Assembly (NCBI RefSeq): GCF_036971445.1
Contig: NC_091482.1
Coordinates: 24,180,001 to 24,244,000 of the forward strand
DNA length: 64,000 bases
Direction: 5' to 3'
From: Narcine bancroftii
Lineage: Eukaryota
The translations under genes were made by a program, and so were the position numbers. This document shows, piece by piece, positions 9,151 through 30,169 of the stretch (position 1 is the stretch's first letter; every line of letters starts with the position of its first letter). The notes beneath the pieces were generated by a model, which ran no database searches, had not been told where the DNA came from, and saw only the letters and a program-made list of their open reading frames with translations.

Positions 9151-9784
9151 TAATTCTCACTCAGCTCTGAAATGTCATATTTAATTGATTTGCCGTAGGT
9201 AACAAGCCCTGAATATAGAGATAGCAGCCTGTTCCAAGGGTTGTAACGGGAAATGTTGTTGGTGAAAAAAAGGACTTAACCTGGATGTTGGCTGCATTGT
9301 CAACAACCAGCAAGGCATTGTTGTTCCTTGGATCATGTGTGACTTCATCTTCTAGATGGGCCTACCACAACAGACATTGTAGGAGTTGATTTTTTTTTGT
9401 CATCTATTTTAAAAGTGAACAATGTAGATACTGGGGTTAGTTTCATGGACTAATTATGTCAAATGGACCCATTATGTCAAAAGCTGCAGTCTGTAAGCTC
9501 AAATTGCCTGTGTCAACATAATGTAGCTATCAACTAATGAATGACAATAACAGTGATAAAGTTGAACCTATAATTTCAATTGCCTCTAGTTATTTATAAT
9601 TCATTATCAGTGTACTTAACACGCTTACAATGTCAATATGGGGAACACAAAATAGGTTAAACGCTGGTCCTTGTTTATTATGTATTGACAGTAATTAGGA
9701 CACATGCTTTGTTTTAAGAATCAAATTTGTCAATAGTAAAAAAAATTGAAAATGGAATATTGATACTTGCATGCAGAAAGCTCA

Positions 9785-10211
9785 ATGTCAGAATCAGAAT
9801 TTATTGTCATGTAATTTGTTGTTTAGCGGCAACAATAGTGCAAACATTTCTATAAACAGCCTTAAAAATTAAATAAAAATAGCGTAAAATAAGGCAGTGT
9901 CTGTGGTTCATTGTTCATTCAGCAACCTGATGGTGCTGTAAAGATGTTCTTGTGCCACTGAGTACTCAAGCTCCTGTACTCTTCTTCCCCCATTGGTAGC
10001 AGTGAAGAGGGCATGGGCTGGCTGGTTTGGTGGGGGGGGCGGGACCTTGAGGATAGAGTCTGCTTTTTAAAGACCTCACCCACCTCTTATAGATATCCTC
10101 GATGCAGTGAAGTCTGGTGCCTGTGATGTTGCAGACTAAGTTAACGATCCTCCCCTGGTGTTTTTTTCTTGTCCTGAGTATTGGCACCTCTATACCAGCA
10201 GCGATGCAACC
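9785..10211 (-). mobile_element. Rex/Babar-like LINE 3' fragment abutting the minisatellite
   Basis: Reverse complement resembles the 3' part of the copies at 15090 and 48907; tail reads aataaattctgattctga on the minus strand. Confidence 0.65.
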
Positions 10212-12898
10212 AGGGGGTCCACGACCTAGGCTCAGACCAAAGGGTCCATGTCCCAGGCTCAGACCAGAGGGTCCACGTCCTAGGCTCAGACCAGAGGGTC
10301 CACGTCCTAGGCTCAGACCAGAGGGTCCACGTCCTAGGCTCAGACCAGAGGGTCCACGTCCTAGGCTCAGACCAGAGGGTCCACATCCCAGGCTCAGACC
10401 AGAGATGGCCACGTCCCAGTCTCAGACCAGAGATGGCCACGACCCAGGCTCAGACCAGAGGGTCCATGTCCTAGGCTCAGGCCAGAGGGTCCACGTCCCA
10501 GGCTCAGACCAGAGATGGCCACATCCCAGGCTCAGACCAGAGATGGCCACGTCCCAGGCTCAGACCAGAGGGTCCACGTCCCAGGCTCAGACCAGAGGGT
10601 CCACGTCCCAGGCTCAGACCAGAGGGTCCACGTCCCAGGCTCAGACCAGAGAAAGCCACGTCCCAGGCTCAGACCAGAGATGGCCACGTCCCAGGCTCAG
10701 ACCAGAGATGGCCACGTCCCAGGCTCAGACCAGAGATGGCCACGTCCCAGGCTCAGACCAGAGATGGCCACGTCCCAGGCTCAGACCAGAGATGGCCACG
10801 TCCCAGGCTCAGACCAGAGATGGCCACGTCCCAGGCTCAGACCAGAGATGGCCACGTCCCAGGCTCAGACCAGAGATGGCCACGTCCCAGGCTCAGACCA
10901 GAGATGGCCACGTCCCAGGCTCAGACCAGAGATGGCCACGTCCCAGGCTCAGACCAGAGATGGCCACGTCCCAGGCTCAGACCAGAGATGGCCACGTCCC
11001 AGGCTCAGACCAGAGATGGCCACGTCCCAGGCTCAGAGCAGAGATGGCCACGTCCCAGGTTCAGACCAGAGATGGCCACGTCCCAGGCTCAGACCAGAGG
11101 GTCCACGTCCCAGGCTCAGACCAGAGGGTCCACGTCCTAGGCTCAGGCCAGAGGGTCCACGTCCCAGGCTCAGACCAGAGGGTCCACGTCCCAGGCTCAG
11201 ACCAGAGGGTCCACGTCCCAGGCTCAGACCAGAGATGGCCACGTCCCAGGCTCAGACCAGAGATGGCCACGTCCCAGGCTCAGACCAGAGATGGCCACGT
11301 CCCAGGCTCAGACCAGAGATGGCCACGTCCCAGGCTCAGACCAGAGATGGCCACGTCCCAGGCTCAGACCAGAGATGGCCACGTCCCAGGCTCAGACCAG
11401 AGATGGCCACGTCCCAGGCTCAGACCAGAGGGTCCACGTCCTAGGCTCAGGCCAGAGGGTCCACGTCCCAGGCTCAGACCAGATGGTCCACGTCCCAGGC
11501 TTAGACCAGAGATGGCCACGTCCCAGGCTCAGACCAGAGATGGCCACGTCCCAGGCTCAGACCAGAGATGGCCACGTCCCAGGCTCAGACCAGAGGGTCC
11601 ACGTCCCAGGCTCAGACCAGAGGGTCCACGTCCCAGGCTCAGACCAGAGGGTCCACGTCCCAGGCTCAGACCAGAGATGGCCACGTCCCAGGCTCAGACC
11701 AGAGATGGCCACGTCCCAGGCTCAGACCAGAGATGGCCACGTCCCAGGCTCAGGCCAGAGGGTCCACGTCCCAGGCTCAGGCCAGAGGGTCCACGTCCCA
11801 GGCTCAGGCCAGAGGGTCCACGTCCCAGGCTCAGACCAGAGGGTCCACGTCCCAGGCTCAGACCAGAGGGTCCACGTCCCAGGCTCAGACCAGAGATGCC
11901 CACGTGCCAGGCTCAGACCAGAGATGGCCACGTCCCAGGCTCAGACCAGAGATGGCCACGTCCCAGGCTCAGACCAGAGGGTCCACGTCCTAGGCTCAGG
12001 CCAGAGGGTCCACGTCCCAGGCTCAGACCAGAGGGTCCACGTCCCAGGCTCAGACCAGAGATGGCCACGTCCCAGGCTCAGACCAGAGATGGCCACGTCC
12101 CAGGCTCAGACCAGAGATGGCCACGTCCCAGGCTCAGACCAGAGGGTCCACGTCCCAGGCTCAGACCAGAGGGTCCACGTCCCAGGCTCAGACCAGAGAT
12201 GGCCACGTCCCAGGCTCAGACCAGAGATGGCCACGTCCCAGGCTCAGACCAGAGATGGCCACGTCCCAGGCTCAGACCAGAGATGGCCACGTCCCAGGCT
12301 CAGACCAGAGATGGCCACGTCCCAGGCTCAGACCAGAGGGTCCACGTCCCAGGCTCAGACCAGAGGGTCCACGTCCCAGGCTCAGACCAGAGATGGCCAC
12401 GTCCCAGGCTCAGACCAGAGATGGCCACGTCCCAGGCTCAGACCAGAGATGGCCACGTCCCAGGCTCAGACCAGAGATGGCCACGTCCCAGGCTCAGACC
12501 AGAGATGGCCACGTCCCAGGCTCAGACCAGAGATGGCCACGTCCCAGGCTCAGACCAGAGGGTCCACGTCCCAGGCTCAGACCAGAGGGTCCACGTCCTA
12601 GGCTCAGACCAGAGGGTCCAGGTCCCAGGCTCAGACCAGAGGGTCCAGGTCCCAGGCTCAGACCAGAGATGGCCACGTCCCAGGCTCAGACCAGAGATGG
12701 CCACGTCCCAGGCTCAGACCAGAGATGGCCACGTCCCAGGCTCAGACCAGAGGGTCCACGTCCTCGGCTCAGGCCAGAGGGTCCACGTCCTCGGCTCAGG
12801 CCAGAGGGTCCACGTCCCAAGCTCAGACCAGAGGGTCCAGGTCCCAGGCTCAGACCAGAGGGTCCACGTCCCAGGCTCAGACCAGAGATGGCCACGTC
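10210..12898. repeat. Two-variant minisatellite, 98 units of 27 bp (A) or 28 bp (B)
   Basis: A = CCAGGCTCAGACCAGAGGGTCCACGTC, B = CCAGGCTCAGACCAGAGATGGCCACGTC. Hand count gives 44 A and 54 B. Confidence 0.98.
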
Positions 12899-13280
12899 GC
12901 GAGCTCTGTCCAGCGACTGCTCCCAAGCTCCAGGGACGTCAACCACGCGCTGACGCAATTCCCCACCCCAGGGAGCTCACGATGCGCGCTGACGTGTGAC
13001 AGGAGCCCCGCCTCCTCGCCGCAGCGTGCTGACGCCGCAGTGCCACGCGTACTGACGTGGCCGCGCTGCCGGGGTGAATGGAGCCGCTCGCTGTTCTGGC
13101 CCTCTCCCTGTTCCTCGGGGCGCTCATCTCGCTCATCTCGCTGGTGGTGAGCGTGTCGCGGAAGGCCCCGCCGCAGCAGAGTGACGGTAAGGAGCAGGAC
13201 GGCCAACTGAGCTGCGGTGGTGGGCGGCCGAGGCCTTGGACGGGGCGGGACGTCAGCGTCCTCCCTTCTGCCTGGTCTGG
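12899..13280 (+). promoter_or_regulatory. CpG-rich TBL2 promoter/exon 1 region with bZIP (UPRE/CRE/C-EBP-ATF-like) motifs and GC boxes
   Basis: Locally high GC and CpG. TGACGCAAT 12951-12959, TGACGTGT 12990-12997, GC box CCCCGCC 13006-13012, TGACGTGGC 13053-13061, GGGGCGGG followed by ACGTCA 13242-13255. Confidence 0.7.
13078..13186 (+). CDS. TBL2: TBL2 coding exon 1 (N-terminal hydrophobic membrane anchor)
   Basis: ATG at 13078 in a CpG-rich region encodes MEPLAVLALSLFLGALISLISLVVSVSRKAPPQQSD (hydrophobic stretch). Donor G|GTAAG at 13186/13187, phase 1, matching exon 2. Confidence 0.85.
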
Positions 13281-13389
13281 GTCACAGCCCCAAGTGGGTA
13301 CGTCCCACTCTTAAAGGGGCTCCTTTGGACTGGGTGAAGCCGTCATAGGGTTAGCCCCTGCTAAATCCGCCCGCATTAATCACCAGTCC

Positions 13390-13855
13390 TTTATCTTGAA
13401 GTAAAAACAGTCCTGGAGAAACTCAGCAGGTACTTTATGCAGCAAAGACATAACTAACATTTCGGGCTCAAGGAGTGGGAAAATGTGGACAGGCGTCCGA
13501 ACAAACAGGTAAAGGGGGGGGGGGGTGAGGAGCACGGTCCCAAAGGCAGTAGGTAATAGGTGGAGAAGGGAGCAGCAAACGGTGGGGGTGAGGGATTGTT
13601 AGGTGAATTGAGTGGGTAGGGGGTGGAGAGCTGAGGGCAAGCAGTAAAGGGCAAAGGGATGGAGAGTGGGTTAGCAGAAACCAGAGAATCTGAGTTGGAG
13701 AGTGTGCCCAGGGGGAAAATTCCTCCAATTTGCAGGTGGTCTTGGTGGGATAAGTGCACGAGTTTGGGAGTGGGTTGCAGACCTGAAATGGTTGGCCACT
13801 GGGAGATCCCTGTCACTGATGCGGGCAGAGCGTCGGTGATCGGGAATCGCCCAGT
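13390..13855 (-). mobile_element. Penelope-like 3' fragment
   Basis: Shares ctggagaaactcagcagg and tttcgggctcaagg terminal motifs and layout with the Penelope copy at 26045. Confidence 0.6.
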
Positions 13856-14032
13856 CCTTTGCTTTGCTTGTTCAGGTATGCATGCAGATGCCTCTGAAAT
13901 ATCGTTTCCAGATAAATGAGCTAAGTCTGGTCAGATCGTCCAGATCTTGCACAACGCTTTCAAAGTAGCACCAAGTATGGAGGCGCTTCACAGGAACACT
14001 CGCACACAGAACTTGATACCAACACCCCTACT

Positions 14033-14602
14033 CTCCGCCTCCATCCTCTGACCTCCCCAACCCTCCACCTCCCTCCTCTGACCTCCCCAACCCTCCACCT
14101 CCCTCCTCTGACCTCCCCAACCCTCCACCTCCCTCCTCTGACCTCCCCAACCCTCCACCTCCCTCCTCTGACCTCCCCAACCCTCCACCTCCCTCCTCTG
14201 ACCTCCCCAACCCTCCACCTCCCTCCTCTGACCTCCCCAACCCTCCACCTCCCTCCTCTGACCTCCCCAACCCTCCACCTCCCTCCTCTGACCTCCCCAA
14301 CCCTCCACCTCCCTCCTCTGACCTCCCCAACCCTCCACCTCCCTCCTCTGACCTCCCCAACCCTCCACCCCCCTCCTCTGACCTCCCCAACCCTCCACCT
14401 CCCTCCTCTGACCTCCCCAACCCTCCACCTCCCTCCTCTGACCTCTCCAACCCTCCACCTCCCTCCTCTGACCTCCCCAACCCTCCACCTCCCTCCTCTG
14501 ACCTCCCCAACCCTCCACCTCCCTCCTCTGACCTCCCCAACCCTCCACCTCCCTCCTCTGTCCTCCCCAACCCTCCACCTCCCTCCTCTGACCTCCCCAA
14601 CC
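14033..14602. repeat. 30-bp C-rich minisatellite, about 19 copies, TBL2 intron 1
   Basis: Unit CTCCACCTCCCTCCTCTGACCTCCCCAACC; copies nearly identical. Confidence 0.98.
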
Positions 14603-14689
14603 TTTCATCGACCCTTTGATCCTCCTAACCCTCCTCCTCCACTCTCTGGTTCCCCCAACCACCCCCCCCCCCACCACCTCCACCCTCTG

Positions 14690-15088
14690 TTTAACACTCC
14701 AACTTTCCCCAAATTCCTCCACCACACTGACTCCCAAATACTCTGACCCCTACTTGGCCATTACTATCCCCTGACTTTTCCCTTCGTCCCGCCTTGCCTT
14801 TGTCCCGCTCTGCCCACGTCTTAATGAGTTCTGTGCATGCCGCGAGGCCAAACTCTTCTTCCATTGCCTCCTTCTTCAGGCCTACTTCCACAACCTTAAT
14901 TTTCCACCCCGCCCACTCAAAACCACTCCTGCTTTAAGCCTTTCCACTTGGACACCTCCTTCTGGCCAGCTGCCCACTGTGGATCATTTTAGTTCCAATT
15001 GCTGCTGAGACATTAACTGTCTCGATTTCACTCCCCTCTCTTATTCTAATCTCACCTCCTCTGAATGTTCTGCCCTCCACTCACTCAT
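14690..15088 (+). mobile_element. Penelope-like ORF fragment, decayed
   Basis: Resembles the region upstream of Penelope RT (LFFHCLLLQAYF..., SNC..DIN.LDF, SNLTSSECSALHSL). Confidence 0.5.
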
Positions 15089-15089
15089 A

Positions 15090-16245
15090 CATCAGAATGC
15101 TCTTTATCAACTATAGTTTGGCATTTAACATTATCATTTCCTCAAAACTGACCAGCAAACTCAAAGACTTAGAAGTTAACACCCCACTGCATAATTGGAT
15201 CATGATTTCCTCTATTCTAGACCACAATCAGTGAAGATTGAGAAGAACTTCTCCACAATCTCCATCAGTTTCAGTGCACCACAGGACTGTGTTCTTAGCC
15301 CTCTGCTCTATTTACTTTATTCCTATAACTGTGTAACTCGGTACAACAATAACACCATCTTCAAATTTGCTGACAATACCAAAGTGGGTTGTATAAAGGG
15401 AAGTGGATGAGTCAGTATACAGAATGGAGATTGAAAACATGGCTGAATGGTGCACCAACAACAGCCATGTATGCAATGTCACCAAAACTAAGGAGCTGAT
15501 TGTTGACTTCAGGAAAGGAAAGCCAATCCAGTGATCAATGGGGAATCAGAGGTGGAGAGGGTGAGCAAATTTAGGTTCTTGAGAGTCACTATCTCAGAGG
15601 ATCTTTCCTGGACCCAACATACCAATTGCATCGTGAAGAAAGCACGTTGGTGCCTCTACTTCCTCAGGAGTTTGCCGAGGTTTGATGACACCAGAAACCC
15701 TGGCAAATTTCTACAGAGATGTGGTGGAAAGTGTGCTGACCAGCTGCGTCACGGTCTGTTATGGGAATGCCAATACATTGAGTGTAAAGTCCTCCAAAAG
15801 GTAGTGGATACTGCCTAGGACATGGGCTAAACCCTCCCCATTATTGAGTAAACCTTCAGGGGACGCTGCTGTCAGAGGGCAGCAGCAATCATCAAAGACC
15901 CACACCACCTAGCACACGCTCTGTTCTCGCCACTGCCATCAAGAAAGAGGTATCGGTGCACCGTGCACCGCCAGATTCAGGAACAGTTGCTACCCCATCC
16001 TCAACGACAAAGTCAATCTGAGACTCATTTAAGGACTCTTGTGGACTTTATTGATTGATATTCTTTGTTCTCTCTGTCTTGCACAGTCAGTTTGATTACA
16101 TTTGTTATCTGTTTGTTCTATTTGATTACATTTTTACGCTGTGTACAGTTTATTTTTGCACTACTGATTTATGGTAATTCTACTACATCCTCAGGAAAAA
16201 GGAATCTCAGGGTTGTTTGTTCCCTGATAATAAATCTGAATCTTC
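15090..16245 (+). mobile_element. Rex/Babar-clade LINE RT and 3' end, decayed
   Basis: RMLFINYSLAFN, RPQSVKI, APQDCVLSPLLYLLYS, IFKFADNT, VERVSKFRFLRVTISEDLSW. Tail aataaatctgaatct. Confidence 0.85.
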
Positions 16246-17119
16246 AAAAAAAAAACGAATGTACCTTGATGAAGGGCTCGAGCCTGAAATGTTGGTTCTG
16301 TATCTTTACTTTTGCTACCTGAAGTGCACTTTTGACCTGCTGAGTTTCTCCAGCATTGCGTTTTTACTTCAATCATAGTGTCTGCACCAAAGAAGTTGCT
16401 ATTTGGCATTAGACCAAAATGTCCATGGTGTGCCCAAATGGATGGAAACATTGAGAGGTAGGAATGTAATGTAATTGAAGGTCCATTACTTTCGAGGCAG
16501 ATACTCCCAATTCCCTAACCTGGGGTAACATTTTCCCTGGTGGACGTATCATTTCAACCCAATTAGGATCTTGTGCATTTCAATGTGGCCGTCTCTCTCT
16601 TTTAAAAAAAAATTAGTGAAAAGTTCTGTCTTGCTCAGCCTGTCTGCGAGTGACTGATCTGCTATCTAAGGAAATAATTTGGTGCTTGATCAGGTGGACT
16701 CTCAATTTAGAAAGAGTGGAGGAAATGAAAGGTTTTGGTGAAAACTGTGTGTTCCTTTTGTAGATTTGGAAACTGGTGTGTTAATTTTGAATAATGGTGC
16801 AGTTGTATCTTCCAATGGTTATGGAGAGGTCCTAACAATCAACCAGGGTTGCTTCCTTGAATGACTCCTGCTGCTTTTAGACTTGAGCAGATCTTTGTTT
16901 TTACAAATGGCCTTTGCCCTAATCTAGAATTTTCTCTGCTAATCTACCTTTTCCACAACTATGTTGAATAGAATTATAATTGTTAACACTAGAATGCCCC
17001 TTTGAAACTCACTTTGTTTGGCCTTCGGTCTGATTCTCTTGTCCACTGGCTGAAGTATTAAGAATTCTCTATAACTTCTGCATGTTTTTCACTGAGGTAG
17101 TAAGAAGTAGGAGGAAAAG

Positions 17120-17330
17120 GTTAGGGCGAAGCCTTAACAGTGTCTGCCATCGGGACTGGACCAGGATTCAAATCCTGCACTGTCAGAAGTTTGTACGTTC
17201 TCCCCATGTCTGCGTGGGTTTTCTCCCACCGTTCAAATAACATACTGGGGATGTAAGTAATGGGCTATAAATTGGGCGGCATGGGCTCATAGGCCGAAAT
17301 TATGCTGTATATCTAAATTAAAATTTAAAA
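17120..17330 (+). mobile_element. tRNA-derived V-SINE (HE1-like)
   Basis: B-box-like ggattcaaatcc followed by the V-domain gtttgtacgttctccccatgtctgcgtgggttttctcc; AT-rich tail. Confidence 0.75.
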
Positions 17331-17809
17331 AAAAACACTTGGGGCATCAAATCTAGAACCCCTCCCCCACAGATTTCAAAGAACATGTAAAGGGCAAAAC
17401 ATGTCAGATACAGGTAACTTGTTCAAGCAGAAGGGTATGGAAAGCCCAGAGGTAAAAATAAAAAGAGTATTAATGTAGAAAGGAGAGGGTATGAGCAAGA
17501 AAAAATAAACGTATATATAGAAAAAATGTGTAGGTGGTAAAAGGGATAGAAAAGTGAACACTGGAGTGGGGTGGAAATAAATATGATCCAAAAAAAATTG
17601 CTGCATTTTTGTATGAATGAAGGATGATGCTCAAGCTGCAGTTAAGTAGTGTGGTTTTTGACCTTTTATATTTATTTTTCTATTCCTCATGCCTTGCATG
17701 TTAATTATGCTTAAATTGATGTTAGAGTGTATTTATTATATACCTAGGAACCTGCAACAAATAAGGCTTTCATTGCGTCTGTACATTAGGGTGATTAGGT
17801 CTGTCACTG

Positions 17810-18045
17810 GGCAACACGGTTAGTGCAATGCTGTACGGCGCCAGTGATTGGCATCGGGGTTCAAATTCTTCACTGTCTGTAAGGACATTCTCCCCTTTTC
17901 TGCATAGGTTTTCACTGAGGGCTCCGGTTTCCTCCCAGATTCGAAACGTACCAGGGATTGTTAGATACTTGGGAGTAATTGGGCATCATGGGCTCGTTGA
18001 CCGAAATGGCCTGTTGCTGTGCTGTATGTTTAAATTTAATTTTAA
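17810..18045 (+). mobile_element. tRNA-derived V-SINE (HE1-like)
   Basis: ggggttcaaattc B-box, ctccggtttcctccc V-domain, tail gctgtatgtttaaattt. Confidence 0.75.
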
Positions 18046-18640
18046 AAATTATACTTGCGCTTGTGGCAAGAAATTCTTCATTCATTCATAAAAATGTGAG
18101 AGGGATGAATTATCCATAGGTGAAGAACTTTTGAATGTAGATAAATCACTTGATTCTTATGAAGTGTATCTCAAGAAACTAGCAAAGAAATAGTAAGGGC
18201 TTCCTGCTCTCAGCCCTGTGGATCCACTTCAGAATCTATTTCCTGAAACAGGAATCTGAAGATAACTTCTTGCATCCGTGTTGGGACAAATTCGAAGCTC
18301 TGTCCTGGAGCTTCCACATGACAAAGGACATTCTTGCAACCTACCAGAAGTCGATGTTTTTTTTCCTAGATTGGGATAAAGCTCACCATTCAGTTTTAGG
18401 TATTTATGTTGTACTCATTTCCCTCCTACTGCTTGTGCTCCATTGAAATCTGGGGTTTGATCTGCTTTACCATCTCTTTAACTAATTAGTTTATCTTATA
18501 ATTTATTCAGAAATGTTTGGTATTGATATATTTCACATGCTACACTAAAGTATTTCAAATACCAAACAGTCACAACCTGCGGTAGTGCCTGCCTTTGGTA
18601 AACTTATGCCTCTCATTTTGTTGTTTTAGATTGGTCCCAG

Positions 18641-19308
18641 TGTTTGAGCTACCAAAAGAAAATAGACACACACACCGAGAGCAGTTCATTTTATACAAAT
18701 GTTTATTACAAATTCAAAAGCTGATTTCAAACTACAATATGCAAGCCCTTCCCAACTATACTTATCAACGCCTGGACTGGTCCTAACTGCCGAAGCGAGG
18801 CAACGACTGCACACTTGCAGTAGGTTGTCAGGGCGCCGGTAGCAGCTTCTCCACCTCCCCTGACCGGGACGTTGGCTGGACTCTAGAAGTTCTTCTTGCT
18901 GAGAGATGTTGCCACCTCTCGGAGAGTCTCAAACTTCAGCAGGGGGACCATGGCTTATATTACCCAAAAACTGCTTACCCAAGCACCTATTCCCAGCACA
19001 GCAAGAAAGATAAGCGAGCAAGCTAGCATGCCTAGGCTTCTATCGAATAACATAATTTTCAGCTTATCAATTTGAATACAATGGTTTATTTTGCATCAAG
19101 GCTAGGCCTCTGACAGTCTGTGACCAAAACAAGCAGGAAGAGTAAATGTTCCTGGTACACAGATGTCCTTTCGTCAGATAACAGCATCTCTGGTCCCTCG
19201 GAGGAATTTAGCTTATGTCTGCTGATTCTAAAAACAAGCAGGTTCTCAGCCTTGCAGAAGCAAAGGGTGCAAAAGTAAAAAACAACACAGTTAGAATCTT
19301 CCATTACA
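18641..19308 (-). mobile_element. Candidate retroviral-type solo LTR, antisense in TBL2 intron 1
   Basis: About 670 bp with TG...CA termini. On the minus strand: TATA-like AATATAAG near 18955-18962, then AATAAA near 18702-18707, then the end. Internal short direct repeats (aaaacaagcagg twice). Target-site duplication ambiguous. Confidence 0.5.
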
Positions 19309-20180
19309 GTGCCCAGATTTTTTTGGAAATGGTGCAGATTCTCTCTTCGTGCCCTTTTTCCTGCCAGCTTTGTTGCTACTGCTGGTCCTATCAGTCCTCT
19401 CAGCTGTTAGGATTTCCCCTACACTCATGACTGCTGTGTATCCTTGCACCTGGCTCTCAAAGTCAGTGGTTTTTCTCAGACGTGCTTTGTCTCTTCTGTT
19501 TAATTTGCTTAACGCCCATCCTTTGATTGGTCTTGCTAATTAAATTTTTAAATTTTGCTATATGATGAAAATGCAGATTATAACTAAGTTTGCTTTACTT
19601 TAAAAATTCAACCATGTTTTTGGAAAAGATAACTTTTCAGACTTCTCCCTAATTTATAGTAAGTTTGAATTACATATAATATAAAACAAACATGCTTTCT
19701 CCCTTCAATGAATCTTTCAACTAAGCTTTTGAAGTTGTCCTTTAAATTTGTCAAATACTTCGTAAATTCACCAAGAACGTATGATTAAAATTTGAAGAAG
19801 AAGCATAATATCTATTTGTAATCTTAAATGCCGTTGATGCAGAGAAATTTTGCATATTTTCTGTATATCCTGACAGCTAAAGATGCCATTGCAAAGGGGA
19901 AAGAAAACAATAAATTCCAGGCCCAGAGTCTGAGGAAATGCCAAGGCCCTAGGAATTTGTGATGAGAGGATTGTGGTAGTGTATGTGTTACTAAGCTGTG
20001 TTAAAGATGGTTTCGTCCTCTGTTTTGAGAAAATTGTGCTTTTAATCATTCATGTGTGAAATGTGATGTAGTGTCTTTGAATGTGCTTACATTGGGGTTG
20101 CTGAACACCACTCTCGGTAGCTCTTTAATTGAACTGTAATAAAAGACCGGAGAATTGAAGTTTCTGTAATTTTATTTCAG

Positions 20181-20311
20181 AACACAGTAAAGTCAGTAAT
20201 GGTGTTAATGAGAAAAATGTGGCATCAAAGAAGCAAAAGCTGCTACGTTCACGCAAAGAAAAAATTCAACAGCATGTGTTTACTCACCCATTGTTGGCCG
20301 CTTCGCTGAAG
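20181..20311 (+). CDS. TBL2: TBL2 coding exon 2
   Basis: Acceptor ttttatttcag|. Encodes ...KKQKLLRSRKEKIQQHVFTHPLLAASLK, matching the vertebrate TBL2 RKEKPQQHNFTHRLLAAALK motif. Donor AAG|GTAAGG, phase 0. Confidence 0.93.
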
Positions 20312-20719
20312 GTAAGGAACTTTGAAGTTGTATAACACACCATTACCGAATTCACCAGAGGTCACGGTGATCACTGAGAATGGGAAGTTCACAACAAAAT
20401 CTGGATTATTACAGTGGTCCCCTTGAGAAAATAATTTAAAGGATTATCTAGATTCCAACCTTTTACATGCCTGAAAGTTGTTTTGGCACTCTGGACAATC
20501 TAACAAGTCGTGTTGCACAGGGCAGTTTGTAAGAATTAATAATCCAAAAGCAAGATGCTGAAATCTGCGACAGAACAGAAAATATCTGAAATATGAAGAC
20601 AGAAGTAGAGATAATGTTTCAAGTTGATTACATTGAATTTTATATTTTGATGTAATTGTTTAGGTCATTGCCTCTCTTCACATTTTGCAGAAGAGTTTAT
20701 GACTGGAAGCTTGCTAAGC

Positions 20720-21640
20720 CTCTGGATTTGCACACAGCATTCCAAGTGCAGCCAAACCAAAGTTTTATATGGCTGTAATATGACTTCCTTATATTTATCC
20801 TGAGTTCCCTGCCTGATTAAGGCAAGCATGCCACAAACATACTTGCTTGGGCCTTTCATTGATCTGGACCCGCCTGCTGTTAACTGTTTGCATTCCCATT
20901 ACATTTGAAGTGCAAAACCTTGCGCTTGTTCAGATTATACTCCATCTGCCATTTCTCTGCCCATATTTGTAACGTATCTGTATCCTATGTATTCCTGATT
21001 GTCCTTTATTAAACTGTCCACAACTCCACTGATCCTTCTATAATCAGCATACTGTACTTACTAACCTGTCCACCTACTTTTTTACCCAAGTCATTTACAT
21101 AGATCAAGCAACAGGGGATGCAACCCTGTTGCCTGAAACATCACTTGTCACAAACCTCCAGCCTGAATAACAGCCTTCCACCCCCATCCAGGCATCTTTA
21201 GGCCAGGCAGTTTTTTAACCAAGCTGTTCACTTCCCCTGGATCTCATGAATTTGCATTTTCTGAATCAGCCCACCATTATAAAACTTCTTAAGACTCTTG
21301 GTTATAATATGTATGTTCACACTATGACGCTGCCACAAAACACCAAATTTCATGACTTGTTCATGACAATAAATTCTGATTACCAATGTCCACAAAGATG
21401 GCATTCACTCGAACCATCTTTGTCACCACTTGAAAGAAAAACTAAGTTTGGTTATGTTGACTTCTTAATCTATGACTTTCAAAATGTGCATAAATCTTAT
21501 CCCTAACTATCCTTTCCACTAGCTTTCCAACCACCAATGTGAGCCTTACAGGCCCATAATTTCCTGGATTATCTTTTTTTCCCCATCTTGAAACAAAGAT
21601 ACAACATTAGCTACTTTCCAGTTCTCTGGGATCTCTGCTG
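20720..21640 (-). mobile_element. Decayed CR1 fragments
   Basis: Minus-strand ORF ...YKTLVWLHLECCVQ (RPHLEYC-like); CR1-like nucleotide tracts. Confidence 0.6.
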
Positions 21641-22137
21641 TCCAATCATGAAAATGCCCCAGCAATCTTAATGCTCTTGAAAAGACCCAGCACCACCTCT
21701 TTTTATTGGGGTGGGGGGGGGGAATAGTAATATGGAATGAATTGTACGCATGTTTTATTGTTTATATCTTGGGTAGAACTCCCCAGCATTAGTATTGTGT
21801 ATTTATAGACATCAAGATGGTTGCACATTCTATGACTGCTGGAGGCACTTTCTTAACATCAGGCATATTTTAGTTGACATAGTTTACAAGCAGGGAGATA
21901 AAACAATCGTAGTAATAGTTCCTTCAGTTTTGGAGTAGGTATTCTTGTCATTTGTTTGTCTGCTGAAACTTGCCCTAAAGATGAAATTTGACAAGGGTCT
22001 ATCATCTTTTCAAGCCAGTGAGTTTCAGACTCCTACAGCCACCTGGGTGAAATTATTTTTCCTCTTAATCCTACTTATTGAATCTGTTTTTTTTTCCCTT
22101 TTACCAATGAAAATTATCAACGTGCCTCTTAATTTTT

Positions 22138-22765
22138 CATATATACTCATGTAATAGTCAAGTTTTTGGGACCAATTTTTCGGGTCAAATTTTAGACAGA
22201 TACTAATTTTGACTGAGGTAAGTACCTGCGTCGTTCAAGACATGGGGAGCTCGGATGGCCAGGACTGGGTGGTAAGTCTGCAGTTGGAGTGTCGGGAGCA
22301 CAGATGGGCAGATGGCCGAGGCGTCGAGAGCTCGGATGGCAGTTGCGTCATCGGGAGCTCTAGTGGGCAGGCGGCCAAGGTGAGGATTTGCAATGGGGGT
22401 ATCGGGAGCTCTGGTGGGAAGGCAGTCAGGGTGTCGGGAGTTCGGATGGCCGGGCAGGTGGTCGGGGTATTGGGAGCTCAGAGGGATGGGTGGCTGAGGT
22501 GAGGGTTTGTGGTTGGGACGCTGGGAGCTCCGGTGGGCAGGCGGCCAGGGTGAAGGTTTATGGTCGGGGCATCAGATGCTCATATGGTCGGGCAGATAAA
22601 GCGTCGGGGTGTCAGAAGCTTGGATGGGTGGGTGGTCAGGGCCAAAAGTAGGGGGAAGTTGAGTTTTACATGGGATATATGAAAAATGCTCAATTTTGGG
22701 GGGCCAAAAAAAGGGAGGGGATCAACTTCTGCATGGGATTGATTACTACACGAGAATATACAGTA
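22138..22765. mobile_element. Non-autonomous Tc1/mariner (Tigger/pogo-like) DNA transposon
   Basis: Imperfect TIRs atatactcatgtaatagtcaa and ttgattactacacgagaatatacagta; GC-rich internally repetitive core. Confidence 0.6.
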
Positions 22766-23223
22766 TGTACTCTGATCAGGCCAACTCAGTTCTATTTCAA
22801 AGTAAGTAACTCTAGTTTGTCCAATAATTTCCCAGACACAATTTTTCCAATCTGGCAACATCTTTCTACCTCTCCAACACAATTTCATATTAGCTCTTCA
22901 AAGCAAAAATTAATGAATCAAATCATGAAATAATTAACTACTTTATTTCACTCTATCTTGAATATGCAGAAACTCACAGATTTCTGCATGTTGCAGATGC
23001 TGGAACCTGAACCAAACACAATCTGCTGGAGTAACTCAGTAGGTCAAGCAGCATCATTGCGAGAAAAGGACTGGTCAGTGTTACAAGCCAAAACCCTTTT
23101 AAAGAGTTTTGATTTGTAACAGGATTATTACCTTTTCTCCCACTAATGCTGCTTTAACTGTTGAACTCCTCTGGCAGATTGTGTTGAAATTTCAATCCAT
23201 ATACTTTCATGTTTGGGTGATTA

Positions 23224-23438
23224 TACGTATACCCCACTTTACAAAACTAGAGCGTTCCTCGAGGGTGGTAAGCTGAAATGGCATGAAGCGAAGACCCATT
23301 CACTACTATTGAAGATTATTTTCATAAAAGCGAAAACCCATTCAAAGCTCATTAAAATCCTTTCCTAAAAGCAAACACAGGTTTCTTCATAAAGGTGAGT
23401 TTCCATAAAACATAATTGTAAATTGGGGTACACCTGTA
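23224..23438. mobile_element. Short Tigger-like MITE
   Basis: TIRs tacgtataccccactttacaa and ttgtaaattggggtacacctgta. Confidence 0.65.
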
Positions 23439-23926
23439 TTTGAAAAGAAACAATTTTATAACGCCCACAAATATTTGTCTCAATAAAAAGAGTTTTTAAA
23501 TAAAGATCATTCAACATTTCCAACTGAACCATAAACGTCTTAACAATTCTGATGACCCTTGCAACCTTTGGTTTGAAAAGGTTAGGGTTTGTTTCCGTTA
23601 CAATTTGAACTCTTGTTGTTCACAGTTAGACAGCCTTTCCTTTTTATAATTGCCTTGCATTAACTCTGCAACATAATATGTGTATGGAAAGGTAGAAAAT
23701 GCTTATTATTTATAAATTGAGGAAACTTCATTAATCGTGCTGGTGTGTATTTTAACTGCTGACAATCAGAAGCAAACTTGCAGAATGAAATTAAAGCACT
23801 TTAAATATTGTGTTTTTCCAAATCCCTTTTGAATAGAAATGTTGTTTGCTGATTAAAAGTGAAAGGAAACATAAGTGAGGCATGCTTTATCTGGAAAAAA
23901 CTTGAGTTGTAATTTTTCTTTTCAAG

Positions 23927-24111
23927 GGCCACACTGGGAATGTTAGCTGCCTAGATTTTAGTAGCAATGGGAAGTACCTTGCGTCCTGTGCTGACGACCG
24001 TACAGTTCGGATTTGGAGTACAAAAGATTTTCTTGAACGTGACCACCGTTGTATGCGAGCTAATGTTGAACTTGACCATGCTACACATGTGTGCTTCAGC
24101 CCTGACTCAAG
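23927..24111 (+). CDS. TBL2: TBL2 coding exon 3 (WD40 repeats)
   Basis: Acceptor ttcaag|. GHTGNVSCLDFSSNGKYLASCADDRTVRIWSTKDFLERDHRCMRANVELDHATHVCFSPDS. Donor AG|GTAAAA, phase 2. Confidence 0.96.
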
Positions 24112-24540
24112 GTAAAATAGTGTATTAAAATATGTAAAGAAGGTGTTGGCATCTTGTTCTTTTCTCCTTGCTTAAGTTTGGGCATGTCTTTTAACATTTG
24201 TAGTTATGTGCCAAAGAAAAATATTATTCAAACTGTTCTGTGTGGATCATGTAGAATTGAACTTAGTTGGGTTAATTGTGACTTGGGGGAAATAACATTG
24301 GCAGTTTTCACTCAAATGTGCAATTGCCACCAGTTATAATCCTTCCTTGTTTGGTCATTCTTAGATAATGGTCTATTCACAGGGATGTGAAATGAGTTGC
24401 CATGCTTCCCTCCCCACAAGAAATATTGTCAATGCTAGACTGAAATTATGGAGTTTTGGATTGGGAAATTATATATGTAAACCTATGTTGGGATTCTGCA
24501 GTGTGTTAATGTAATTTTCTTTTTAATTCTGTCACTGAAG

Positions 24541-24692
24541 AGCCTTCATCACATGGCTAGCAAATGAAGAAACGATCCGTGTTTTTAAAATGATAAAAAA
24601 GGACGATGGTTCGTTCACATTTACCGCTGCACCTGAAGACTTCCCAAAGAGACACAAAGCCCCCATCGTGAACATTGGAATTGCAGAAACAG
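24541..24692 (+). CDS. TBL2: TBL2 coding exon 4
   Basis: Acceptor ctgaag|. AFITWLANEETIRVFKMIKKDDGSFTFTAAPEDFPKRHKAPIVNIGIAET. Donor G|GTGTAG, phase 1. Confidence 0.95.
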
Positions 24693-25196
24693 GTGTAGTT
24701 CGATTTTTAGAGCTCACCCATTGGCTGGCTTGTTTGGACAAGTTTCAACTAGTTCTTGATTAATATATCTACCTCCTATAGACATTTCGAATAATTTGTA
24801 AATTTTGTTCGGAAATATTATTCTTCTATTGCCAAAGGCTGTCTGTTGCATAAATAATTATTTCACATTCCACCCTCACCCCCCCCCCCCCCACCCCCCA
24901 CCAAACAAGCACTTGAATCTCCAAATCATTTTGGGCTAAATTCTGAATTGTGTGACAGAGATGTGAAATGACTTGCCATGCTTCCCTCCCCACAAGAAAT
25001 ATTGTCAATGCCAAATTGAAATTATTGATTTTTGGATTGGGAAATTGTATATGTTAACCATGTTGGGACTCTGCAACATTAGTGCATTGCAAGTTTGATT
25101 ACCCATTGCAATTCAACAGACAATCATCTGTGAATACTCTGAACAGAGAAAAATGTATATGGATCAAAATGTAATATGTATCTATTTCAATGTTAG

Positions 25197-25323
25197 GAAA
25201 GTTCATTATGTCTGCCTCCAGTGATACTACCATCCTCATCTGGGATTTGAAAGGAGAGGTTCTTGCTACAATTAACACTAATCAGATGAACAATGCTTAT
25301 GCAACTATATCTCCTTGTGGAAG
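25197..25323 (+). CDS. TBL2: TBL2 coding exon 5
   Basis: Acceptor tgttag|. GKFIMSASSDTTILIWDLKGEVLATINTNQMNNAYATISPCG. Donor AG|GTCAGT, phase 2. Confidence 0.96.
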
Positions 25324-25391
25324 GTCAGTGTCCTGCAGTTTTGCTATTTTCGTTTCTCAACATTGGGATTGCTGTGTTTAAAAACTCTTGA

Positions 25392-26036
25392 TACAGTACA
25401 TAATCTTTTATCTGAAACCCTTGGGACCAGACACTTTTTGGAAATGGAATTTTTCAGATAATAGAATAATAGCAACAGGATGTTAAGTGATTTCGCTGAT
25501 TTCAGATTTGCACGAAACAAAGACAGACTCCAACTAGAAGAGTCTCTGGACTGGGGGGGTGGGGGTGGCGGCAACGCTGGACGGGCAGGTGGTAAATGAA
25601 GTGAGATAAAGATAGACAAAATTACTAGTGTACTTTTTATTTTTAAGAAAAAAACTCTCTCAAGCTAAGCTAAACACCTGAAAATATGGTGATCATCATC
25701 TTCAGGTTGGAGTCTTTTTAAAGACTTCTTCCATTGTCATCGGGCTCCCGAGCAGGAGTGGGGACTGTAGTCAGAGACCAGCGGCGGCAATTGGGAGGTG
25801 TTGGGGACTGGCGGCCATCCACATTGAAAAATTCTGGGCAGGAGTGGGGACCTCGGGCTCCCAGCATGTCTAACTGGTAAGAGCAATGAGATAAGGAGCA
25901 GGACAGGGTTAGGTCGCGTTGGGTCACGTTTGGCGCCAAAAGCGAGCTTTGGCGTGCAGGCGACATCCATGGAAAAATATGTTCGGTTTTCGGAAGTTTC
26001 GGTTTTCAGAATTTCGGATAAAAGATTATGTACTTG
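25392..26036. mobile_element. Tc1/mariner-like MITE in TBL2 intron 5
   Basis: TIRs cagtacataatcttttatctgaaa and tttcggataaaagattatgtacttg; same TIR family as the element at 39927. Confidence 0.75.
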
Positions 26037-26044
26037 CGATTAAA

Positions 26045-27145
26045 AATACAGAAGTGCTGGAGGTACCCAGTACGTCTTGCAGTGTCAATAGATGATAAAG
26101 CTATATTACTGATGTTTCGGGCCTGAGGCCTTCATCAAGATATGAGAAAAAGCAGGCAGGCATCTGGATGAATACTGAGGAGAGAGAGAGAAAGAGGAGG
26201 AAGAATGATGGGAGAAGTACAGACCAACAGACAAAAGGTGATATTTGGATATAGAGAAGAGGCCATGAGAAAGAAAAGGTGAGAATTGATAGAGGGGAAG
26301 GGGAGGTTGGTTGGGGTAAATGTAGAGCTGTGGTAAAGGAGGCAAGGAAAGGAAAAAGGAGAGAGAGACAGAGCTACCGGAAAGGAGGGGTGATGAATGG
26401 AAACTGGAAAATTCAATGTTAACAGCATTTGGTTGGAGGGTGCCCAGATGGAATATGAGGTGTTGGTCCTCCAATTTCTGGGTGGTCTGAGTCTGGCAGT
26501 GCATGAGACCATGGATAGGCATGTTGGCAAGAGAATGGGACGGGGAATTGAAATGGGCTGTCACTGATAGATCTCCGCTCTTGTGGTGGAAAGAGCAGAG
26601 ATGCTGAACGAAGTGATCTCCCGTCTCCATCCAGTCTCACCAAGAAGACCGCAACGGGAGCACCGGATGCAGTAAATGACCCCTGCAGATTCACAAGTGA
26701 AAGTTTCTTTGGAGCACATCCTTTACTCACAGCATTAGGTGCCAAAGGAGTCATGGAGGGAGCGGTCTCTGCAGAAGGCAGAGAGGGGAGGAGCAGGGAA
26801 AATGCATAGTATGAAATGGCGGAGTATGAGCTATTGGATGCGAAGGGGAATTCTATCCTTGTGGCACAGGGGACCATGGCAGATATCTGGATAATGGAGG
26901 ATATAGGGGTGGTAGAGGGGAAGCCATGTTGTTTGAAGAAGGAGGACATCTCTAATGATCCAGTGTGGAAGACCTTGTCCTGGGAGCAGATGAATTGGAA
27001 GAATTGAGGAAAAGGGGGGCAGGGTGTGAAGAGGTGTAGTCCGGGTGGATGTGGGTAGGTTTGTAGAAGGGTTTGTCTCCAAAGGAGGAGAATGAGAGAT
27101 CGAGAATGGGGAGGGTGTTGCCAGAGAAGGACCATGTGAATTTGA
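26045..27145 (-). mobile_element. Penelope-like element fragment in TBL2 intron 5
   Basis: Minus-strand GIY-YIG C-terminal remnants (AHFNSPSHS..M.IHGL, LEDQHLIFHLGTLQPNAVNIEFS) and the terminal repeat motif. Confidence 0.8.
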
Positions 27146-27296
27146 GATCTAATCAAACAGCATTTCAATGCTAGTGTTCCTTGGCTGTGTAAGAACAATT
27201 GCATCACGTTTTCACATGCTTTCACTGTCATCACATCCTCCAAGGACTTGTACACCTTTTAATTCCATAGGTTATGGTTCATTTTCCTTTCTGCAG

Positions 27297-27449
27297 ATTT
27301 GTGGCCTCGTGCGGTTTTATAACAGATGTGAAGGTTTGGGAAGTATGTTTTAATAAATCGGGAGTGTTCCAAGAAGTGGTGAGAGCCTTTGATCTAAAAG
27401 GGCATTCAGCTGGGATTTACTCGTTTGCTTTTTCCAATGATTCCAGAAG
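27297..27449 (+). CDS. TBL2: TBL2 coding exon 6
   Basis: Acceptor ctttctgcag|. FVASCGFITDVKVWEVCFNKSGVFQEVVRAFDLKGHSAGIYSFAFSNDSR. Donor AG|GTAAGA, phase 2. Confidence 0.96.
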
Positions 27450-27684
27450 GTAAGACCTACTTTTTGTGACCTGCTACATTGGCCTTGATTAGAAATCCAG
27501 CTATATTTTGAAATCTTGCAGAAAAATAATCCATTTCACTAGCAATGAGGTCAATCGGCCTATATGAACTCTTGGTATGTAGCCTAGAACTGTGTATGTA
27601 CAAGTTGAATGATTTAAAAATATATATTTTCCTTGTATACCCATTAATAGTTTAGATTAAAATAGGGTAAAATTAAATTAAAAA

Positions 27685-27845
27685 AAAAATTTAGATGTAC
27701 AGCATAGTAACAGGCCCTTCCGGCCCACATGCCTGTGCCACCCATTTTGACCTATTTAACCTACAACCCTCGTACATTTTGAAATGTGGGAGGAAACCCA
27801 CATGGACACAGGGAGAACATATAAACTTATGGACAGTGCTGGATA
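27685..27845 (-). mobile_element. V-SINE, antisense, intron 6
   Basis: Reverse complement of the SINE body (gtgggaggaaacc...cagggagaac). Confidence 0.7.
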
Positions 27846-28367
27846 AACCTTCATTATTATAAGGATAATAATTAAGTAAGGGTGGCTAATTCCCCAGGGC
27901 TTGATGAATGGGAAGCAAAGGATGTGATAGCTGGGGTCCTGAAGGGTACTTTTGCATCTTTATTTGCCTTCATTAAGAGTTTTTAATGATAGATGGTTGA
28001 TATCTGGATTATGCTGCCAGAGGAGGTGGTAAAATCATATAAATCACGCATTTGGAGAGATGCTTGAATAGGAAAGTCAGAGAAGGATATTGATTTATTA
28101 AGGCCTAGTGTGTTAAGTGGACAAGACTTGGAGAGTTGAAGGGCCCAATTCTACGCTGCCCAACTCCGACTCAATAGTCTAAGTCCCCTTGTCCTCAACA
28201 GGAATATAAATAGAAACAGAGACCAGTGCCATAGCTATTAAATCATCTTTTTTGACTATTATCGAAGGTGGTGGGATTAAAAATTGGTACAGGATCTTAG
28301 TTTAAATTGTATACAAGGGCAGGTTATGGCATTTTGTATTGGATCTGAAATACAATTGCAAACAGAA

Positions 28368-28620
28368 GCACAGTTGGCGCAATAGTAAGTGCAACGCCTT
28401 TACAGCGCCAGCGATCGGGACCGTACAGGGATTTGAGTCTCGCGTTGTCAGTAAGGAGTTTGTACATTCTCCCCATGTCTTGGTGGGTTTTCTCTGGGGG
28501 CTCCGATTTTCTCCCACCATTCAAAAACATAATGGGGGCGTGGGTTATGGGGTGTAAATTGTGGCACTGACTCATGGGCCGAAATGGCCTTATACCATGC
28601 TGTATGCCTAAATTTAAATT
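28368..28620 (+). mobile_element. V-SINE, near full length, intron 6
   Basis: A-box-like gttggcgcaatagtaag, B-box-like gggatttgagtct, V-domain, tail gctgtatgcctaaatttaaa. Confidence 0.8.
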
Positions 28621-30033: not shown

Positions 30034-30169
30034 TTATTGGTTTGTAGGCTAACCTATTTTTTTTTAATGGAAATTAGTAATTAGCTAGAATAGTTCAATC
30101 TAGTCTCAAAGATTGTCTTAAATAAATACAGACTATAATGATTAAAGTTGTTCATTGTTTCTTGGATAG

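What the first reader, a model, noticed from the sequence alone, without database searches (positions are those of the whole stretch)
10210..13061. 98-unit minisatellite of CCACGTC (UPRE/XBP1-like) cores ending about 180 bp upstream of an ER-stress gene
Seen: most units contain CCACGTC. The 28-bp variant gives GCCACGTCC, which on the minus strand is GGACGTGGC, one mismatch from TGACGTGGC. The array runs directly into the TBL2 promoter, which itself holds a perfect TGACGTGGC. Established: TGACGTGG is the UPRE bound by XBP1s/ATF6/CREB3-family bZIPs, CCACG is the ATF6/XBP1 half of ERSE, and mammalian TBL2 is an ER-membrane PERK-interacting WD40 protein. Inference: the array may be a copy-number-tunable cluster of low-affinity UPR-factor sites (a VNTR rheostat or decoy) for TBL2.
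Basis: partly seen in the sequence, partly recalled or inferred. Interest (0 to 1): 0.7.

Follow-up and report, generated by a model that had tools for sequence, protein, structure and literature searches.

The report
LINE-edge minisatellite abutting ray TBL2 promoter
In a ray genome, a 27-28-base sequence is repeated 98 times between a broken jumping gene and the promoter of the ER-stress gene TBL2; its units only partly match the stress-response site, so it is likely an ordinary repeat that grew from the jumping gene's edge, while the true stress switch likely lies in the 170 unique bases beside it.

Summary
The array is real: 98 units (54 of 28 bp, 44 of 27 bp), 88 with CCACGTC, ending 180 bp before the ATG of a confirmed TBL2 gene; the unit occurs only here in the 3.3-Gb genome. 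The UPR-rheostat reading is weak. No unit holds TGACGTGG or an ERSE partner; the core is no better kept than the rest of the unit; about 34,800 tandem hits of the same core lie elsewhere in the genome (decoy role untenable), as do arrays of perfect UPREs far from CpG islands. The array starts where a LINE is cut off; intact copies continue with a CCACG-bearing stretch like the unit's first half, and the same LINE spot has bred a second CCACG minisatellite elsewhere. The unique 170-bp promoter holds five TGACG sites and a perfect UPRE, kept in another species; human TBL2 mRNA rises about 2-fold in ER stress. A related tandem unit (34 bp) exists in a close relative. Weak XBP1/CREB3 binding to the GACGTG hexamer is not excluded. 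The scan noted similar promoter arrays before on other DNA (same genome; SEC23B elsewhere). Verdict: new member of a known kind, low-moderate interest.

The parts
9782..10213 (-). Truncated, decayed LINE copy (3' end of the reverse-transcriptase ORF, ALKBH8_N/DUF1891-type C-terminus); cut off exactly where the array begins
   Evidence: 26 blastn hits at 65-87% in fetched loci, 16 of them ending at 10210-10213; minus-strand translation resembles the same ORF end; a sister copy (L063) hits PF09004, E=1.8e-8 (L042 gave no hit). 'LINE' for this domain context is my own knowledge.
10210..12909 (+). Locus-specific minisatellite, 98 units of 27 bp (B) and 28 bp (A) in interleaved runs; 88 CCACGTC cores (GGACGTGG on the minus strand); ends more diverged than the middle
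   Evidence: 68 of 68 exact 24-mer hits in the own genome lie in this array; CpG obs/exp 0.33
12903..12930 (+). Degenerate unit-like edge of the promoter, resembling the second half of the unit
   Evidence: Local alignment to A and B dimers, shuffle p=0.03 and 0.02, post hoc
12910..13077 (+). Unique CpG-island promoter/5' UTR of TBL2 with five TGACG half-sites (12937 minus, 12951, 12990, 13030, 13053)
   Evidence: CpG obs/exp 0.88 for 12900-13300; 5 sites vs 0.6 in dinucleotide shuffles, p=0.0004; orthologous stretch 12923-13322 in organism D, run X13
13042..13061 (+). GCCACG plus perfect UPRE TGACGTGGC, the likely XBP1s/CREB3-family input
   Evidence: 0 of 15 motif positions changed in organism D vs 19 of 109 others, p=0.07
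13046..13186 (+). TBL2 exon 1 as covered by a spliced contig (ATG 13078, hydrophobic N-terminus, GT donor after 13186)
   Evidence: Run X5 contig of 2735 nt, 0 differences, continues into exon 2 at 20181
13078..30626 (+). TBL2 (transducin beta-like 2, WD40) coding span, seven exons
14025..14602 (+). Second, unrelated minisatellite (30 bp x 19, C-rich, no CpG core) in intron 1; exon 1 is thus flanked by two arrays

Best explanation
A locus-specific 98-unit minisatellite fills the gap between a truncated LINE and the TBL2 CpG-island promoter; it likely grew by slippage and unequal exchange from that junction and likely has little effect on TBL2, whose ER-stress input likely comes from the unique 170 bp next to it. 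Shown: array anatomy, uniqueness, the LINE edge, the TGACG cluster with a perfect UPRE, the lack of a full UPRE or ERSE in the units. Inferred: (1) the seed joined the LINE's CCAGA-ATG...TCCACG stretch (first half of the unit) to the promoter edge (second half), so the 'UPRE-like' CCACG would be LINE coding sequence by descent; (2) turnover homogenises the middle and leaves diverged ends, without selection on the core; (3) XBP1s/CREB3-family bZIPs would bind the unique sites at 12990 and 13042-13061 and at most weakly the GGACGTGG units; (4) the array is probably largely methylated, which would further lower bZIP binding (own knowledge).
For: 0 of 98 units hold TGACGTGG, no CCAAT/ATTGG in 10210-13186. 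Core bases changed 10 of 679 vs 34 of 1993 elsewhere in the units; 5 distinct changes in 7 bp vs 14 in 20-21 bp, p=0.65 for sparing. LINE similarity stops at the first unit; 6 of 16 sister copies have TCCACG in the next 25 bases and 9 of 16 start CCAGAAT; anchored alignment to the units median p=0.03 (A), 0.025 (B). The same LINE spot has independently grown a 16 x 34-bp CCACG minisatellite with no CpG island nearby (L152). Tandem GGACGTGG is common here: 34,849 triple hits; arrays of perfect TGACGTGGC exist away from CpG islands (L023, 67 x 21 bp; L105, 139 sites). Unique promoter: 5 TGACG, p=0.0004, GCCACG and TGACGTGGC unchanged in organism D. Array CpG obs/exp 0.33 vs 0.88; four distal units show CpG transitions (weak). 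In human data 163 of 2672 tested genic VNTRs (6.1%) associate with expression, twice as often within 100 bp of a start site (PMC8024321, passages).
Against: The junction origin rests on post-hoc p values of 0.02-0.03, on non-independent LINE copies, and fails when the first unit is aligned from its fifth base (median p=0.89). Such adjacency is not the norm: 0 of 14 CpG-island loci had a >=150-bp minisatellite within 1 kb (small sample, large chromosomes). A tandem unit with the same B-type core and 7 extra bases (period 34) is present in a close relative, organism B (run X8), so the array has persisted and the core half is what stayed constant. The units keep 7 of 8 UPRE bases, single-base UPRE changes tune rather than abolish XBP1s binding at KLF9 (PMC6251307, passages), and 88 weak sites 150 bp from a start site could add up. 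Motif conservation in organism D is not robust (p=0.04, 0.07 or 0.30 by motif bounds).
Confidence: 0.62

Rival explanations
1. One reading: the array is a cluster of low-affinity XBP1s/CREB3-family sites whose number tunes TBL2 induction, switching on only at high factor levels.
For: 88 GACGTG hexamers, 51 with a full GCCAC half-site; GACGTG is given as the UPRE in PMC10164557; CCACG-only XBP1s targets are listed in a review (PMC8301375, passages); human TBL2 is stress-induced and mouse Tbl2 falls to 0.53 in Tpit-knockout pituitary, where Creb3l2 and XBP1 are low (PMC6722061, supplement file 2 and passages; indirect); precedent TRIB3 and KLF9; core half shared with organism B.
Against: No full UPRE or ERSE in any unit; core not spared; <=1-mismatch match arises in 3% of shuffled units; Fink et al. 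state that CCACG binds XBP1s only with NF-Y (the review says otherwise); CCACG has a LINE source; stronger sites lie in the unique promoter.
Confidence: 0.15
2. The array affects TBL2 by another route: as repeated HIF (RCGTG), YY1-like (GCCAT) or SMAD-like (CAGAC) cores, or as a 2.7-kb spacer or methylation front between the LINE and the CpG island.
For: 90 exact RCGTG, 52 GGCCATCT and 86 CAGAC in the array (motif names recalled); TBL2 matters under low glucose plus hypoxia and XBP1s co-binds with HIF1a; it abuts the island within about 30 bp.
Against: Each core appears in 5-8% of shuffled units, so some known core is expected in any such unit; no sparing of any part of the unit was seen.
Confidence: 0.15
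3. The array is a decoy that soaks up UPR bZIP factors.
For: Many near-consensus sites in one place.
Against: Its 88 cores are about 0.25% of 34,849 tandem hits of the same core, and arrays of perfect sites exist elsewhere.
Confidence: 0.02
4. The array is an assembly artefact, or encodes a repeat protein (962-aa stop-free frame 10111-12999).
For: Long open frames on the plus strand; copy number not checked against long reads.
Against: DNA runs X1-X4 hold 83-93% of the words of 12700-13400 (possibly the assembly's own sample); unit contigs are in a second sample, X5, and a relative, X8; variant runs and diverged ends are as expected of a natural array; frames are open because the consensus units lack stops, and A/B switching scrambles the frame.
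Confidence: 0.04

Closest known systems
Human TRIB3 promoter 33-bp VNTR (Ord et al. 2020, PMC7425993; abstract and outline read)
   Same: Tandem repeat of about 30 bp in the promoter of an ER/integrated-stress gene, with a bZIP-type core in each unit.
   Different: TRIB3's unit is a consensus C/EBP-ATF element conserved as a single copy in mammals, has 1-5 copies and a measured effect. Here 98 copies, a non-consensus core not spared by mutation, a likely LINE source, and no measured effect.
Low-affinity UPRE of KLF9 (Fink et al. 2018, PMC6251307; passages)
   Same: A one-base departure from TGACGTGG near a start site could set a higher XBP1s threshold.
   Different: KLF9's TGACGTGA still fits the consensus and is conserved; the units here change the first base (T to G), which was not tested there (deleting the first 4 bases abolished the response).
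Minisatellites born inside dispersed retroelements
   Same: Array starts at a fixed spot of a retroelement family; a second copy of the family (L152) shows an independent array at that spot.
   Different: Here the element's far side is missing and the array runs into a CpG-island promoter; the unit matches the element only in part.
Human promoter eVNTRs as a class (Bakhtiari et al. 2021, PMC8024321; abstract and passages)
   Same: Array within 500 bp of a gene start.
   Different: Those are short (median 48 bp) and shown polymorphic; this is 2.7 kb and polymorphism is untested.

Membership tests
Minisatellite / VNTR | Head-to-tail units of 10-100 bp at one locus | tested here: met
   98 units of 27-28 bp; 68 of 68 exact hits at this locus
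Minisatellite / VNTR | Copy number varies between individuals | not testable with these tools
   Only collapsed contigs were served
UPRE | Full consensus TGACGTG(G/A) in the unit | tested here: not met
   0 of 98 units; all read GGACGTGG; consensus
UPRE | ACGT core / GACGTG hexamer | tested here: met
   88 of 98 units; hexamer definition
UPRE | Bound by XBP1s/ATF6/CREB3 factors and stress-inducible in a reporter | not testable with these tools
   No binding assay or weight matrices available
ERSE / ERSE-II | CCAAT-N9-CCACG or ATTGG-N-CCACG (NF-Y partner site) | tested here: not met
   No CCAAT or ATTGG in 10210-13186
TRIB3-type functional promoter VNTR | Factor site in the unit is under constraint | tested here: not met
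   Core changed 10 of 679 bases vs 34 of 1993 outside
TRIB3-type functional promoter VNTR | Unit is a conserved single-copy element in outgroups | tested here: inconclusive
   Organism D contig starts at 12923, past the seed; organism B has a tandem relative of the unit, locus not shown
TRIB3-type functional promoter VNTR | Expression scales with copy number | not testable with these tools
   Needs genotypes with expression, or reporters
Decoy (sponge) array | Holds a large share of the genome's sites of that type | tested here: not met
   88 cores vs 34,849 tandem triple hits
Retroelement-seeded minisatellite | Array lies in or abuts a retroelement copy | tested here: met
   LINE similarity ends at 10210-10213
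Retroelement-seeded minisatellite | Unit derives from the element's sequence at that place | tested here: inconclusive
   Anchored p about 0.03 in one phase, 0.89 in another; unanchored not significant in 15 of 16 copies
Retroelement-seeded minisatellite | Independent arrays at the same spot of other copies | tested here: met
   One case: L152, 16 x 34 bp
TBL2 (transducin beta-like 2) | WD40 protein closest to named TBL2 proteins, N-terminal hydrophobic stretch | tested here: met

The most novel reading that the evidence does not exclude
A piece of LINE coding sequence that happens to spell the CCACG half of the UPRE was amplified about 100-fold against the promoter of a UPR gene and co-opted as a bank of weak XBP1s/CREB3L2 sites, kept across related ray species with different unit lengths: a transposon-born, length-tunable threshold enhancer, and one case of a lineage-wide habit of amplifying promoter-edge sites.
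Probability: 0.12. Interest if true: 0.62.

Novelty: new member of a known kind. Interest (0 to 1): 0.28.

Why it matters
As read here it is an ordinary promoter-side minisatellite, useful mainly as a worked case of how a retroelement edge seeds an array whose core mimics a factor site, and as a warning that near-consensus motifs in repeats are cheap in this genome. If the weak sites do act, it would be a natural series (0 to about 100 sites, two unit types, several species) for asking whether many low-affinity bZIP sites add up at a real UPR promoter, a question so far studied on 1-5 copy human repeats. I found no paper on this locus or on elasmobranch promoter minisatellites (searches; open-access library only).

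Tried and rejected
No RNA holder listed on record; X5 and X10 are guessed or unlabelled but hold spliced TBL2 contigs. Unit contigs are present in X5; dividing contig depth by copy number gave about 3-7 per copy and X5 has no cover at 12899-13045 or 13187-13340, which would fit leftward transcription into the array, but contigs give neither strand nor level, holes prove nothing and no silent stretch was laid, so transcription of the array is not claimed. Runs X13 (organism D, 92% read), X12 (organism C) and X10 had no contig on the two units laid at 80% likeness: not evidence of absence. X12 covered only intron repeats. Promoter baseline: of 89 motif-centred loci (49 NRF1-type, 40 ZNF143-type; 40 picked from the first 100 of 232 hits) only 14 passed the CpG-island filter, 75 were dropped; 2 of the 89 had a >=2-kb minisatellite within 4 kb. 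Of 6 loci behind the first 100 perfect-UPRE triple hits, the 3 real arrays had no island in 10 kb, while 2 of the 3 short hits lay at CpG-rich stretches. The reversed-pattern controls (1,375,906) lack the CpG and are poor nulls. Pattern GCCACG-N6-12-TGACGTGGC found 34 look-alike repeats and missed this promoter (spacing 5): unused. No hairpin excess (z=0.82) and no 3-G-tract quadruplex pattern. Left flank vs unit, unanchored: p=0.11 and 0.67. A literature search for the unit's 8-mer returned primer noise. The Shoulders 2013 XBP1s/ATF6 data set was not held, so direct XBP1s dependence of TBL2 is not documented here. No look-alike window in other genomes and no note near this place. No weight-matrix scan: no matrices on hand.
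Full report
1. Observation. The window holds a tandem array at 10210-12909 (TRF period 28, 97.2 copies, 94% matches). Parsing gives 98 units, 54 of 28 bp (A, CCAGAGATGGCCACGTCCCAGGCTCAGA) and 44 of 27 bp (B, CCAGAGGGTCCACGTCCCAGGCTCAGA), interleaved in runs. 88 units keep CCACGTC, 50 GCCACGTCC; none has TGACGTGG on either strand. Changes pile up at the ends (16 in the first 15 units, 11 in the last 15 scored, 17 in the middle 67). A 24-base piece of the unit has 68 exact hits in the 3.33-Gb own genome, all in this array. The last core ends 180 bp before the ATG at 13078.

2. The gene. Seven exons from 13078 to 30626 encode a WD40 protein; the last exon is 86-88% identical to skate and stingray TBL2, the top two of 213 hits at E<=1e-30. 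Contigs of run X5 (same organism label, another sample) and X10 (organism B) join exon 1 at 13186 to exon 2, which starts at 20181; the X5 contig begins at 13046. Mammalian TBL2 is an ER type-I membrane protein binding phospho-PERK, needed for ATF4 induction (PMC4231078, passages). Human TBL2 mRNA rises by log2 0.91 and 0.97 after 6 h of thapsigargin or tunicamycin (PMC7287054, rows of supplement files 4-6; the protein changes little), and mouse Tbl2 is 0.53-fold in Tpit-knockout pituitary, where Creb3l2 and XBP1 fall (PMC6722061, one supplement row and passages).

3. The unique promoter. 12910-13077 is a CpG island edge (obs/exp 0.88 against 0.33 in the array) with five TGACG half-sites, where dinucleotide shuffles give 0.6 (p=0.0004), among them TGACGTGT at 12990 and GCCACG plus TGACGTGGC at 13042-13061. 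A contig of organism D (X13) covers 12923-13322 with 32 other letters and 26 gap letters in 399; GCCACG and TGACGTGGC are unchanged, the site at 13030 is lost and those at 12951 and 12990 are changed at their edges. Sparing of motif positions gives p=0.04, 0.07 or 0.30 depending on the bounds chosen after seeing the data: suggestive only. UPREs in 5' UTR position are known (KLF9; PMC6251307, passages). This cluster is the natural candidate for the stress input (inference).

4. Are the units UPR sites? The UPRE consensus is TGACGTG(G/A); ERSE and ERSE-II need a CCAAT or ATTGG partner (PMC8301375, passages). The units read GGACGTGG, 7 of 8, and there is no CCAAT or ATTGG in 10210-13186. They do keep the GACGTG hexamer, which one paper gives as the UPRE (PMC10164557, passages), so weak binding is possible. 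Three tests speak against design. (a) A shuffled unit matches TGACGTGG with at most one mismatch in 3% of 20,000 shuffles, much as it holds exact ACGTG, GCCAT or CAGAC cores in 5-8%; the array also has 90 RCGTG, 52 GGCCATCT and 86 CAGAC, so HIF, YY1 or SMAD stories (names recalled) could be told as well. (b) Within 97 scored units (the last, half-degenerate unit left out) the core is changed at 10 of 679 bases, the rest at 34 of 1993; no unit has gained the missing T. (c) The genome is rich in such arrays: 34,849 triple hits of the unit's own core, the first 100 listed being a dispersed 15-bp satellite at four loci without CpG islands, and 476 triple hits of perfect TGACGTGG, including a 67 x 21-bp array and a 7-kb array with 139 perfect TGACGTGGC, neither beside an island. 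This disposes of the decoy idea and shows that UPRE-bearing arrays arise here by chance.

5. Origin. The 430 bp left of the array are a decayed dispersed repeat; 16 of 26 hits in fetched loci stop at 10210-10213. It translates, on the minus strand, like the end of a LINE ORF, and one sister copy hits PF09004 (a second gave no hit; the LINE label is my knowledge). Sister copies continue past that point with a stretch that begins CCAGAAT in 9 of 16 and holds TCCACG in 6 of 16, like the first half of the unit; anchored alignment gives median p=0.03 (A) and 0.025 (B), but 0.89 when the first unit is read from its fifth base, and unanchored scores are not significant in 15 of 16. The promoter edge 12903-12930 resembles the second half (p=0.02-0.03). 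A prediction of this reading held: a search for that LINE stretch in tandem found one other locus, L152, where a copy of the same family has grown 16 units of 34 bp with TCCACG at the same spot, in sequence of 35-53% GC with no island. I infer a seed at the LINE-promoter junction, with CCACG inherited from LINE codons.

6. Relatives. Run X8 (organism B, 55% read) holds a 41-base contig made of the B-type core half plus 7 extra bases, period 34, going back on itself as a tandem unit does. Organism B is close (1 difference in 117 bases of exon 1, run X10). Its place in the genome is not shown, but since the unit is unique in our genome, an orthologous array is likely. So the array predates that split and has changed unit length; the part that varies, within and between species, lies just before the core, in a CAGA-rich slip tract. 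This fits plain descent and does not exclude constraint. Unit contigs are also in X5; whether as RNA or DNA is unresolved.

7. How unusual is the position? 0 of 14 CpG-island loci sampled by promoter motifs had a minisatellite of 150 bp or more within 1 kb (75 of 89 loci failed the island filter), and in 204 kb around the window the two largest arrays flank TBL2 exon 1. Adjacency is therefore uncommon but, by earlier unreviewed notes of this scan, recurrent in this genome (CCAAT arrays, an RFX array, an NRF1 array at promoters), and a UPRE array was noted at SEC23B in another shark or ray; I did not check those.

8. Mechanism and rivals. Most likely (0.62): a near-neutral array grown from the junction; stress input through the unique sites; array probably methylated (CpG obs/exp 0.33; four distal units with CpG transitions, weak). 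Rivals: weak-site rheostat (0.15), another cis effect (0.15), artefact or coding (0.04), decoy (0.02). The prior for any expression effect of a genic VNTR in humans is about 6%, double near a start site (PMC8024321, passages).

9. Known kin and verdict. It could work like the TRIB3 33-bp VNTR (PMC7425993, abstract and outline) but fails that kind's tests that I could run (consensus site, constraint). It is a new member of a known kind, a promoter-side, likely retroelement-seeded minisatellite. No paper on it turned up (search listings only). Supplements of bioRxiv papers and the Shoulders 2013 data set were not available and may bear on whether TBL2 is a direct XBP1s target. Interest 0.28.

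Noticed in passing
G000:C27:42528001-42535000 (L104-L105): 7-kb minisatellite (30-bp unit) with 139 perfect TGACGTGGC sites in L105, a stronger 'UPRE array' than the one studied; nearest CpG island about 16 kb away; gene context not checked.
   Followed up: partly
L023:4006-5417 (G000:C8 near 306.787 Mb): 67 x 21-bp array, 99% pure, each unit with a perfect TGACGTGGC; no CpG island in 10 kb.
   Followed up: partly
L108:4722-5938, L110:4704-6440 and many more: Dispersed, near-perfect 15-bp G-rich satellite with a GGACGTGG core, probably behind most of the 34,849 triple hits; two of four loci sit in a 105-bp GC-rich repeat family near the start of C1.
   Followed up: partly
L152:3119-3660 (G000:C8 near 61.282 Mb): 16 x 34-bp minisatellite grown inside a LINE copy at the same spot that borders the TBL2 array; suggests a slippage-prone site in this LINE family.
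   Followed up: yes
window 14025-14602: 19 x 30-bp C-rich minisatellite in TBL2 intron 1, so exon 1 is flanked by arrays on both sides; L075 shows a similar two-sided arrangement (2.4 and 2.7 kb) around an NRF1-type motif.
   Followed up: no
window 13179 (exon 1): Organism D has a 9-base in-frame insertion in the exon 1 coding part.
   Followed up: no
G000, 34 places: A dispersed 24-bp element joining GCCACG to a perfect TGACGTGGC, near-identical across chromosomes (control 2); probably part of a repeat family that spreads UPRE-like sites.
   Followed up: no
window 5016-5511, 31991-32407, 46108-46764: Several copies of another retroelement ORF end, one with a 174-bp tandem duplication at 31993-32331.
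   Followed up: no
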